This document shows, in pieces, positions 29,272 through 32,137 of a stretch of DNA of 64,000 nucleotides. The number at the start of each line of letters is the position of its first letter. The first letter of the stretch is position 1. The position numbers and the translations under genes were made by a program. Where the stretch lies: the NCBI RefSeq assembly GCF_035594765.1, contig NW_026943824.1:8078317-8142316 (forward strand), read 5' to 3'. This DNA is from Anolis carolinensis (taxonomy: Eukaryota). Under the pieces are notes generated by a model. It was not told where the DNA came from. It ran no database searches and was given only the letters and a program-made list of their open reading frames with translations.

Positions 29272-32137
29272 ATGCCTGGCCCCGGGAAGCGCCTCCCTCC
29301 GCCGCCGGAGAAGGAGGAGGAGGAGGAGGAGGCGGGCTTGGGGAGGGCCCTGGCTCCCATCCCTGCTGGGCCCCCTCGCCTGGGGCCCGCCTTCTTCGCC
29401 CAGCCCTGCGTCCGCCTGGCCCGGGCCCTGCTGGGGAAGGTAGACAATGTCCTCAATCCCTTGTCAATACAGGCAGTCCCTCCCCAAGTGACAAACATCG
29501 GACGGGGCGGAGACCACAGGAAGTGAGAGCAAATCCACTCCTGGAAGAGTTATGATCATGTCTCATGTTTAGTGGTCTTACTGATTTTAATGCATAGTTA
29601 TAGGTTTCTTGTTTAGATTTTGGGATTTGGTTTAACATGTATGTTAAAAGGTAAAGGTTTCTCCTGACATTAAGTCCAGTCATGCCTGACTCCGGGGGTT
29701 GGTGCTCATCTCCATTTCTAAGCCAAAGAGCCGGCGTTGTCCGTAGACACCTCCAAGGTTATGTGGCCGACATGACTGCATGGAGCGCCGTTACCTTCCC
29801 GCCGGAGCAGTACCTATTGATCTACTCACATTTGCATGTTTTCAAACTGCTAGGTCGGCAGGAGCTGGGGCTAACAGCGGGCACTCATTCTGCTCCCGGG
29901 ATTTGAACCTGGGACCTTTTGGTCCGCAAGTTCAGCAGCTCAGTGCTTCTTTTTTTTTCTCGTGTCAGGAGCAACTTGAGTTGCTTCTGGAGTGAGAGAA
30001 TTGGCCGTCTGCAAGGACGTTGCCCAGGGGACGCCCAGATGTTTTTGATGTTTTTACCATCCTTGTGGGAGGCTTCTCTCATGTCCCCGCATGGAGCTGG
30101 AGCTGGAGCTGATAGAGGGAGCTCAACCGCACTCTCCCCAGGTGGGATTCGAACCTGGCAGCTTTCAGGTCAGCAACCCAACCTTCAAGTCACTTAGTCC
30201 ACTACGCCATCTGGGGGCTTTAACACACTGTGCCACCAGGAGCCCAAGTATGCCCTTACAGTAGAGTCTCACTTATCCAACATCACTTATCCAACGTTCT
30301 GGATTATCCAACGCATTTTTGTAGTCAATGTTTTCAATACATCATGACATTTTGGTGCTAAATTCGTAAATACAGTAATTACTGCATAGCATTACTGCGT
30401 ATTAAACTACTTTTTCTGTCAAATTTGTTGTATAACATGATGTTTTGGTCCTTAATTTGTAAAATCATAACCTAATTTGATGTTTAATAGGCTTTTCCTT
30501 AATCTCTCCTTATTATCCAACATATTCACTTATCCAACATTCTGCCGGCCCGTTTATGTTGGATAAGTGAGACTCTACTGTACTTGCATTAAACCAATTG
30601 CTTTTTCCATTTGTATACATTTTCCATCATACTTATGGGTCATATTAATCCCCAAAGGCTTGCTTAAATAATCAGCACTGCTTCTAGGCAAGGCCACCCG
30701 GGGGCCAGTGTTACCTTCCTTTCCCACAAGCCTATTGATCTACTCACATTGGCATGTTTTCAAACTACTTGCTGGAGCTAACAGCGGGTGCCCACTCCGC
30801 TCCCAGGATTTGAACCTGGGACCTTTCGGTCTGCAAGTTCAGTAGCTCAGTGCTTTAACACACTTCACCACTGGGGCTCCACATGTATGTTAGGCATTGA
30901 ATTTTGCCAATACAGTAGAGTCTCGCTTATCCAATGTGGCCGGCAGAACATTGGATAAGCGAATATGTTGGATAATAAGGAGAGATTAAGGAAAAGCCTA
31001 TTAAACATCAAATTAGGTTATGATTTTACAAATTAAACACCAAAACATCATGTTATACAACAAATTTGACAGAAAAAGTAGCTCAGTACACAGTAATGCT
31101 ATGTAGTAATTACTGTATTTACAAATTTAGCACCCAATGTATTGAAAACATTGACTACAAAAATGCATTGGATAATCCAGAAGGTTGGATAAGCGAGTGT
31201 TGAGTAAGTGAGACTCTACTGTAAATAGAGCCCCGGTGGCAAAGTGTATTAAAGCACTGAGCTGCTGAATTTGCAGACCGAAAGGTCCCAGGTTCAAATC
31301 CTGGGAGCGGAGTGAGCGCCCACTGTTAGCTCCAGCTTCTGCCAACCTAGCAGTTCGAAAACATGCCAATGTGAGTAGATCAATAAGTACCGCTCCGGCG
31401 GGAAGGTAACAGCGCTCCATGCAGTCATGCCGGCCACATGACCTTGGAGGTGTCTACGGACAATGGCTTAGAAATGGAGATGAGCACCAACCTCCAGAGT
31501 CAGAAATGACTGAACATCAGGGGAAACCTTTACCTTTACCTACAGTAAATAAACAAATAGATTTCACTGAAGTTACACTTTAAAATGTCCCTGTTTTGAC
31601 TTACAAATTCAGCTTAAGAACAAACCTACAGAGCCTCTCTCTTTCGTCCCTTGAGGACTGCCTGTATTGTTATTGTTATGAACAGGGGTCCCTAAACTAA
31701 GGCCCGGGGGCCACATGTGGCCCATCAAAACCATTTATTCGGCACCCGTCGCGGCGGCTTCCTCCTCCGAGGATAGCGCATGCAGCACGAGGAAGGAAGG
31801 AAAGATGCACGCCTTTCCTACCTCCTCCCTTGCTTGATGCATGCCTTCCAAAGCTTTGCTATTTATAATGGTACTTTTATTATTATTTAATTTAATTATT
31901 ATTTAAATAATTAATTGCTTATTAAGGGGTGCTTTGCTAGTGCTTTTGGTGCACAAAGGCAGAAGAGGTTGGACTAAACGGCCCAAAGGGTCTCTTCCAA
32001 CCCTCTTTGCTATTATTATTATTATCATTATTATTATTGACAGGACACAGTATAACACAGCCAACGAGATATATATGCTGGATTTCGTATCACAAAATCA
32101 CAAGTTGAACACTTCCCAAGCATTTAGGACTGTGTGA

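What the first reader, a model, noticed from the sequence alone, without database searches (positions are those of the whole stretch)
30219..30733. Inverted copy of the globin Y promoter and leader inside MPG intron 1, pointing at MPG exon 2
Seen: 30583-30733 (CTTGCATTAAACCAATTGC...CCCCAAAGGCTTGCTTAAATAATCAGCACTGCTTCTAGGCAAG...TTACCTTCCTTTCCCACAAGCCT) is a close reverse-complement match to about 47391-47549. That is the non-repeat sequence holding the GbY TATA-like TTAAATA (47468-47462) and the leader up to 1-2 nt before ATG 47389. The match continues past a later TA-inserted MITE (30259-30580) into the adjoining Sauria SINE, which shares variants (CGGACCAAAAG, GAATGAG, GTTAGCCCC) with the SINE at 47563. 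The far junction switches into another SINE at the microhomology GTTACCTTCC...CCT|ATTGATC. The copy keeps TTAAATA (30664-30670) and has CCAAT (about 30594) where the GbY site has CCACT. Inference: a template-switch duplication over about 17 kb, within the globin regulatory domain, placed a globin-type promoter on the MPG sense strand. It could drive an alternative MPG transcript or compete for MCS-R2.
Basis: partly seen in the sequence, partly recalled or inferred. Interest (0 to 1): 0.75.

Follow-up and report, generated by a model that had tools for sequence, protein, structure and literature searches.

The report
Repair-made intron copy inside lizard SINE
A short piece of the first intron of a lizard's globin Y gene, about half of it an old LINE fragment, sits copied in reverse inside a SINE in the MPG gene 17 kb away; it was likely put there by DNA-break repair and is probably neutral rather than a promoter.

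Summary
The inverted duplicate is real (30583-30733 vs 47549-47391, 90.6%, E 3e-58) and is seen in two independent sequencing runs, but it is not the main GbY promoter. GbY has an upstream coding exon (48316-48285), shown by a spliced RNA contig and by RefSeq models in two Anolis species, and lies head to head with PGAP6. The copied DNA is therefore intron 1; it is leader only in a minor, lineage-limited form. About 60% of the 'non-repeat' part is a multi-copy LINE 3' end: TTAAATA is the reverse of its Leu-Phe-Lys codons and CCAAT is the family state. One 12-bp target-site duplication brackets the whole composite. The copy matches the source SINE over its first ~112 columns only, giving one homologous junction and one microhomology junction. 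Best reading: a break in a resident SINE was repaired by invading the oppositely oriented SINE 17 kb away, copying 176 nt of flank. The copy drifts at the SINE's rate, lacks the source's Inr-like 8 nt, and is read through unspliced in one RNA run. Ordinary templated insertion with a clear mechanism.

The parts
29635..29646 (-). 3' copy of a 12-bp target-site duplication bracketing the whole composite
   Evidence: identical to 30881-30892; a shared word of 12 or more in 1 of 3000 control flank pairs
29647..29948 (-). Sauria (Squam1) SINE body and tail; the part nearest 29948 is source-like, the tail half is inferred to be the resident SINE-A's own
   Evidence: alignment of 13 window copies: no source-private event shared after column 112; family name recalled, ACCTTT tail as in PMC13295347
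29949..30216 (-). later poly(A)-tailed tRNA-type SINE inserted into the copied SINE head (4-bp duplication); family not tested
30217..30240 (-). 5' tip of the copied source SINE head
   Evidence: 95% to 47591-47551 together with the next part
30241..30258 (+). copied flank holding the source SINE's own 5' TSD (30258-30247), 10 of 12 identical to 47877-47888
30259..30580 (.). later MITE with TA duplication (Tc1/mariner-type signature)
   Evidence: TA TSD of anole Tc1/mariner families in PMC3014272
30587..30675 (-). copied 3' end of a LINE (last ORF2 codons, stop, start of 3' UTR); holds CCAAT 30594 and TTAAATA 30664 on the + strand
   Evidence: multi-copy contigs and loose ends; 47461-47487 reads LFKQAFGD*; similar end of RT protein P0013
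30676..30733 (+). copied single-copy GbY intron-1 sequence, lacking 47432-47439
   Evidence: only a source and a copy contig cover it in X4; alignment
30731..30880 (-). 5' half of resident SINE-A; junction at AGG, with GGAAGGTAAC matching 2 nt out of register
   Evidence: junction read in an X20 contig
30881..30892 (-). 5' copy of the 12-bp TSD; starts with TA on the SINE strand
   Evidence: signature as in PMC13295347
47391..47566 (-). source: 3' part of GbY intron 1 (leader only in isoform X1)
47567..47876 (+). source Sauria SINE (SINE-B), native here, opposite in orientation to SINE-A
   Evidence: degenerate TSD on both sides
48285..48316 (-). coding part of GbY upstream exon 1 (MAGAGSGAKPR), donor GT at 48284, spliced to 47348
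   Evidence: RefSeq A. carolinensis X2 and A. sagrei proteins; spliced X19 contig
48317..48538 (.). GC-rich stretch between the GbY and PGAP6 start codons, with a GC box at 48436 and a CRE at 48475; likely shared promoter
29272..29439 (+). MPG exon 1 coding part (host gene)
   Evidence: exon 2 starts at profile position 19 of PF02245
32834..33038 (+). MPG exon 2
   Evidence: PF02245 19-80, E 6.6e-24

Best explanation
This is an inverted copy of 176 nt of GbY intron 1 plus the head of its SINE, lodged inside a second SINE in MPG intron 1, likely made by one-ended homologous repair of a DNA break and probably neutral. Shown: one 12-bp TSD brackets SINE-A head, copied flank and a SINE body; the copy is source-like only up to about SINE column 112; the other junction has microhomology; two younger elements inserted into it. 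Inferred steps: (1) a Sauria SINE (A) inserted in MPG intron 1; (2) it broke near its middle; (3) the tail-side end invaded the oppositely oriented SINE (B) in GbY intron 1, 17 kb away, and was extended through B's head and 176 nt of flank; (4) the new strand was released and joined the head-side end at AGG, guided by the near-matching GGAAGGTAAC; (5) no crossover occurred, so gene order stayed; (6) a poly(A) SINE and a MITE inserted later. The inversion follows from the two SINEs facing opposite ways. The promoter-like words are incidental LINE sequence.
For: TSD 29635-29646 = 30881-30892 (1 of 3000 controls). The source SINE has its own degenerate TSD, 10 of 12, whose 5' half travelled with the copy; the copy's tail end carries SINE-A's TSD instead. 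Against the majority of the other window copies (4-10 per column), copy and source share 10 of 13 source differences in columns up to 112 and 0 of 6 events after (Fisher p 0.003; 0.011 without the first three). Identity in columns 10-112 is 95/99 against at most 89% for six other copies that cover it. A 3-nt insertion in the source, paralleled in another copy, is missing from the copy. Gene order matches other sauropsids. Copy contigs stand in X4 and X20. Neutrality: 9/169 vs 4/99 substitutions; LINE origin of the motifs, and unspliced flat cover in X20.
Against: The majority rests on few copies and several shared variants also occur in 1-2 others, so the crossover is only bracketed (columns 113-212). 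Sequence alone cannot tell a DNA template from a local RNA template. A single TSD around three parts is also what a double template switch in reverse transcription gives. The rate test has little power (CI 2.5-9.9%). No outgroup locus with an intact SINE-A was seen. Contigs cannot show strand or start, and only the source stretch was laid.
Confidence: 0.76

Rival explanations
1. One-step tripartite retroposition: the Bov-B machinery reverse-transcribed a SINE RNA, switched to a transcript of the GbY intron (antisense to GbY), switched again to another SINE RNA, and inserted the chimera with one TSD.
For: Single 12-bp TSD starting with TA; all three parts lie in SINE-sense order; tripartite chimeras with TSDs are described (PMC2104539).
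Against: It needs two switches and a landing site 17 kb from the template in a 1799-Mb genome (size), about 2 in 100,000 if random (my arithmetic). DNA repair explains the nearness directly.
Confidence: 0.1
2. One reading: the copy is a working promoter that starts an alternative MPG RNA or draws on the MCS-R2 enhancer.
For: At the source, TTAAATA lies 32 nt before an Inr-like CCACTCT. RefSeq X1 starts at ATG 47389. A spliced X20 contig reaches 47451 and an X16 contig begins at 47425. An MCS-R2-like site lies in NPRL3 intron 5, 7 kb away. The copy is covered in RNA run X20.
Against: The Inr-like site falls in the 8 nt missing from the copy. No GATA or upstream CACCC. X20 cover is level across the TATA-like site (9.96 and 9.77) and runs into the MITE and SINE-A unspliced; X19 and X16 show no copy contig, which is no proof of absence. 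The best donor-like sites before exon 2 (31371, 31406; rough weights from memory) have no in-frame ATG, so such an RNA would lose the first 18 profile positions and next meet a Met after VETEAY, the recalled catalytic segment. The X20 source contig also extends 15 nt upstream of the Inr-like A.
Confidence: 0.05
3. Local RNA-templated patch: a nascent transcript running through GbY intron 1 served as template for repair of the break in SINE-A.
For: Class 2 templated insertions are thought to use RNA patches (PMC5110952); both loci are transcribed.
Against: No splice or poly(A) mark in the insert. Those insertions come from distant sites and join by end-joining at both ends, whereas one junction here is homologous.
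Confidence: 0.06
4. No duplication: two independent insertions of an unrecognised repeat, or an assembly error.
For: Part of the segment is a multi-copy LINE end.
Against: The match continues through 47391-47456, which only two contigs cover in X4, and through the SINE's TSD and head. The copies differ by 5% and two insertions. The copy junction stands in X20, and a contig with the copy's gap and 25 overhanging letters in X4.
Confidence: 0.03

Closest known systems
Class 2 templated sequence insertions (Onozawa and Aplan, PMC5110952; abstract, first quarter of text and passages read)
   Same: A patch of similar size (73-414 bp in their experiments) copied into a break, with microhomology, no poly(A) and no TSD of its own.
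   Different: The donor is 17 kb away, not distant; one junction is homologous within a SINE; RNA origin and polymorphism are not shown.
One-sided invasion / ectopic synthesis-dependent strand annealing between dispersed repeats (recalled; search listed no paper holding the phrase among 12 shown)
   Same: One end uses repeat homology and copies past it into flank, the other end joins by short homology; donor intact, no crossover.
   Different: Nothing essential; here it is an old germline event read from TSDs and variants.
Templated insertions in cancer genomes (PMC7025897; passages read)
   Same: Copy-and-paste of a template into a host site by polymerase switching; replication-based structures are often inverted.
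   Different: Somatic, and in the TERT cases activating; no effect is seen here.
Tripartite chimeric retroelements (PMC2104539; passages read)
   Same: Three parts inside one TSD.
   Different: Those fuse abundant RNAs and land at unrelated sites; here the middle part is intronic DNA of a neighbouring gene.
Erythroid globin promoters (CACCC, CAAT, TATA, GATA; PMC2529266, passages read)
   Same: An AT-rich word and a CCAAT word on one strand.
   Different: Both are LINE-derived; GATA and upstream CACCC are absent; GbY itself is broadly and weakly expressed in turtles and has a GC-rich upstream start.

Membership tests
SINE-guided one-ended repair insertion (SDSA plus microhomology join) | one junction inside shared repeat homology | tested here: met
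   source-like to column 112, not after
SINE-guided one-ended repair insertion (SDSA plus microhomology join) | other junction with short or imperfect homology | tested here: met
   AGG at the join, GGAAGGTAAC 2 nt out of register
SINE-guided one-ended repair insertion (SDSA plus microhomology join) | donor intact and no crossover | tested here: met
   source continuous in X4 contigs; gene order as in other sauropsids
SINE-guided one-ended repair insertion (SDSA plus microhomology join) | pre-existing intact host SINE in the ancestor | not testable with these tools
   no lizard genome held
Class 2 TSIP | no own TSD, no poly(A), microhomology at junction | tested here: met
   the TSD lies at the host SINE's ends, not at the insert's
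Class 2 TSIP | template from a distant region | tested here: not met
   donor 17 kb away
Class 2 TSIP | polymorphic in the species | not tested
   present in the window, X4 and X20; the empty allele was not looked for
Class 1 TSIP / retroposed transcript | poly(A) tail and signal at the insert end | tested here: not met
Tripartite chimeric retroelement | single TSD around three parts | tested here: met
Tripartite chimeric retroelement | parts copied from RNAs, site independent of the source locus | tested here: inconclusive
   site is 17 kb from the source, which argues against; RNA origin cannot be read from the sequence
Erythroid globin promoter | GATA and CACCC upstream of TATA | tested here: not met
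   none in 30583-30664; present at the alpha gene, 43714-43849
Erythroid globin promoter | TATA box with an initiator about 30 nt downstream (spacing recalled) | tested here: not met
   Inr-like site at 32 nt in the source is absent from the copy; next ones at 82 and 98 nt
Erythroid globin promoter | capped starts and open chromatin | not testable with these tools
   only contigs were available
LINE 3' end (30587-30675) | dispersed copies with differing flanks | tested here: met
   19 contigs with another letter at 47503, several loose-end classes
LINE 3' end (30587-30675) | C-terminus of an RT-bearing ORF2 | tested here: met
   an X20 contig identical to 47461-47491 has a loose end reading LSFRKNLKTW (translated by eye); window reads LFKQAFGD*; RT protein P0013 ends FVKALKTWLFGCAFK
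LINE 3' end (30587-30675) | L2 clade | not tested
   clade label recalled; no repeat library on hand
Sauria/Squam1 SINE | ACCTTT tail and TSD starting with T(A) after a T stretch | tested here: met
   against PMC13295347; no consensus library was compared

The most novel reading that the evidence does not exclude
A LINE 3' end read backwards gave green-anole GbY a second, internal promoter (isoform X1, with a new MGN start). SINE-guided repair then cloned that promoter into MPG intron 1, where it fires as a non-coding decoy 7 kb from the MCS-R2-like enhancer and tunes alpha-D globin or MPG output.
Probability: 0.04. Interest if true: 0.6.

Novelty: new member of a known kind. Interest (0 to 1): 0.2.

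Why it matters
As it stands it matters little. It is a well-resolved fossil of repeat-guided break repair in a reptile germline, showing how oppositely oriented SINEs can move flanking DNA over short distances without rearranging a conserved gene cluster. The more useful by-product is the gene model: anole GbY starts with an extra coding exon, 223 nt from the PGAP6 start codon on the other strand, so promoter work on this poorly understood globin should look there. If the copy did fire, it would be a case of a promoter born from a LINE and cloned by repair inside the alpha-globin domain.

Tried and rejected
No whole genome is held for this window, so genome-wide BLASTN was replaced by laying contigs of 4 of the 24 listed runs on 47150-47570. 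No holder is on record as RNA; X19 and X20 show splice joins, X16 does not. X16 and X19 have no contig of the copy, which is no evidence either way. A splice from a donor several hundred bases past the copy could not be seen with this stretch. Misassembly was rejected (5% divergence, two insertions, independent contigs). The reverse direction, MPG to GbY, was rejected by the TSDs. The 30217-30588 vs 31255-30905 hit is a MITE beside a SINE head at both places with different spacers, read as coincidence. Pfam found nothing in 5 of 11 stretches, among them MPG exon 1, PGAP6 exon 1, the LINE end at 21725 and the NPRL3 and MRPL28 pieces, so NPRL3 and MRPL28 are named from recalled sequence and synteny. 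Earlier scan notes: none in three look-ups. Paper searches listed nothing on this duplicate or on a GbY upstream exon or shared promoter; only the listed titles and abstract starts were seen, and subscription journals are not covered. No supplements were read.

Full report
Setting. The window's globin exons match Anolis carolinensis RefSeq proteins without a substitution. Gene order is MPG(+), NPRL3(-), one alpha-globin(+), GbY(-), PGAP6/TMEM8A(+), as described for sauropsids (PMC5786229 and PMC4524481, passages). MPG, the globins and PGAP6 are backed; NPRL3 is named from recalled sequence and synteny. The GbY name rests on position and recalled likeness; RefSeq labels these proteins otherwise.

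Observation. The self-comparison gives 30583-30733 against 47549-47391 at 90.6%, E 2.8e-58, and 30217-30257 against 47591-47551 at 95%. With the MITE left out, the non-SINE part differs at 9 of 169 sites (5.3%, CI 2.5-9.9%) plus one 8-nt gap. No third copy lies in the window. A contig with the copy's gap and variant stands in DNA run X4, and one with the copy's junction into the SINE in run X20, so it is not an assembly error.

What the source is. RefSeq has three protein forms for the green anole gene: 168 aa starting MAGAGSGAKPR, 171 aa starting at ATG 47389, and 147 aa. The first 11 residues of the 168-aa form map to 48316-48284, with a GT donor at 48284 and an acceptor before 47348. Two of three A. 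sagrei records start the same way; the third starts MSLSKVCPL, so the MGN start is not conserved. Sceloporus and Rhineura have extensions of similar length and look. In run X19 a contig joins 47349 directly to the upstream exon and, at the other end, to the next GbY exon. So 47391-47870 is intron 1 in that form. The upstream exon's ATG lies 223 nt from the PGAP6 ATG at 48539 on the other strand, in a 70% GC stretch with a GC box and a CRE; a shared promoter is inferred. Against a clean verdict: a spliced X20 contig reaches 47451 and an unspliced X16 contig begins at 47425, without loose ends. An internal start or a retained intron end both fit.

The 'non-repeat' part is largely a LINE end. In X4, 53 contigs were laid. 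Summed depth is about 190 over 47390-47449 (two contigs, source and copy) and up to 1545 over 47457-47510; 19 contigs carry another letter at 47503; pieces 83-90% alike reach 47545; loose ends differ (15 loose ends and 45 pieces were not shown). An X20 contig identical to 47461-47491 continues upstream as LSFRKNLKTW (translated by eye), and the window there reads LFKQAFGD*. This resembles the end of RT protein P0013; the L2 label is recalled. TTAAATA is thus the reverse of Leu-Phe-Lys codons. A loose-end class of four contigs carries the CCAAT state, and other letters are read at 47511-47512, so CCAAT looks ancestral, not gained.

Anatomy and direction. An exact 12-bp repeat lies at 29635-29646 and 30881-30892 (1 of 3000 controls). 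It starts with TA on the SINE strand, as reported for anole Sauria SINEs (PMC13295347, passages). Inside, on the minus strand, come the 5' half of SINE-A, the copied intron piece, and a SINE from head to tail. The source SINE has its own worn TSD (10 of 12 using the copy's version), and only its 5' half is in the copy. The piece is therefore native to GbY and foreign to MPG. A poly(A) SINE (29949-30216) and the TA-flanked MITE are absent from the source and came later.

Mechanism. Among 13 aligned window copies, copy and source share 10 of 13 source differences up to column 112 and 0 of 6 events after it (my tally, p 0.003, or 0.011 without the three at the very tip). Identity over columns 10-112 is 95/99, against at most 89% for other copies. 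After column 170 the copy is closer to another window copy (158/165) than to the source (134/153, tail alignment included). One junction is thus a homologous switch between columns 113 and 212. The other has AGG at the join and a 10-nt match 2 nt out of register. The simplest account is a break in SINE-A, invasion of the oppositely oriented SINE-B by the tail-side end, synthesis through its head and 176 nt beyond, and a microhomology join. This yields the inversion and leaves gene order intact. These steps are inferred. The main rival, a double switch during reverse transcription (PMC2104539, passages), fits the single TSD but not the 17-kb nearness.

Function. The copy has no GATA site and no CACCC upstream of TTAAATA, while the alpha gene has TATAAA, two GATA and two CACCC-type sites. 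The source has an Inr-like word 32 nt after TTAAATA, and it lies in the 8 nt missing from the copy. Substitution rates in flank and SINE head do not differ (9/169, 4/99, p 0.77; low power). In X20 two copy contigs of depth 9.96 and 9.77 overlap across the TATA-like site and run into the MITE and SINE-A, as MPG pre-mRNA or DNA would; contigs cannot show starts or strand. An RNA from here would skip MPG exon 1 (profile positions 1-18) with no in-frame ATG before the two best donor-like sites. An MCS-R2-like site exists at 37860 in NPRL3 intron 5 (position as in PMC8423624, one passage), but nothing links it to the copy.

Comparison and novelty. It works like a class 2 templated insertion (PMC5110952) but is not filed there, since the donor is local and one junction is homologous. 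It fits repeat-guided one-ended repair (recalled). Searches listed no paper on this locus feature. Verdict: real, a new member of a known kind, probably neutral. Interest 0.2; the promoter reading keeps about 4-5%.

Noticed in passing
window 48285-48316 (-) and 48539 (+): GbY has an extra upstream coding exon giving a 21-aa N-terminal extension, kept in A. sagrei and resembled in Sceloporus and Rhineura; it lies head to head with PGAP6 across a GC-rich stretch. One X19 contig appears to run 1565 letters upstream of the acceptor, perhaps overlapping 5' ends. Platypus GBY was described with three exons.
   Followed up: partly
window 47389-47349 (-): RefSeq isoform X1 starts MGNVSGS, a Gly2 start that fits the loose N-myristoylation pattern (recalled), as in globin X; not conserved in the A. 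sagrei records.
   Followed up: partly
window 43942-45600: Only one alpha-globin gene (alpha-D-like by recalled motif) lies between NPRL3 and GbY, with no N gap; PMC5786229 suspected the missing alpha-A there was an assembly fault. The alpha and GbY 3' ends converge within about 500 nt.
   Followed up: no
window 37860-37900: NF-E2/AP-1 site with a second near-match 30 nt away and GATA sites nearby in NPRL3 intron 5: candidate MCS-R2.
   Followed up: partly
P0010, P0011: A. sagrei has two near-identical GbY records on contigs of 110 and 85 Mb with different N-termini.
   Followed up: no
window 31900-32600: Three imperfect tandem copies of a ~200-nt unit with (ATT)n and (TAG)n runs in MPG intron 1.
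   Followed up: no
window 47892-48041: 150-nt near-perfect palindrome (97%), a MITE-like element with several relatives in the window, in GbY intron 1.
   Followed up: no
window 21845-21985 (+) and near 26793 (-): Two more LINE ORF2 C-terminal fragments with the LKTWLF motif.
   Followed up: partly
window 25258-25504: The only N gap (247 nt), between SINE pieces.
   Followed up: no
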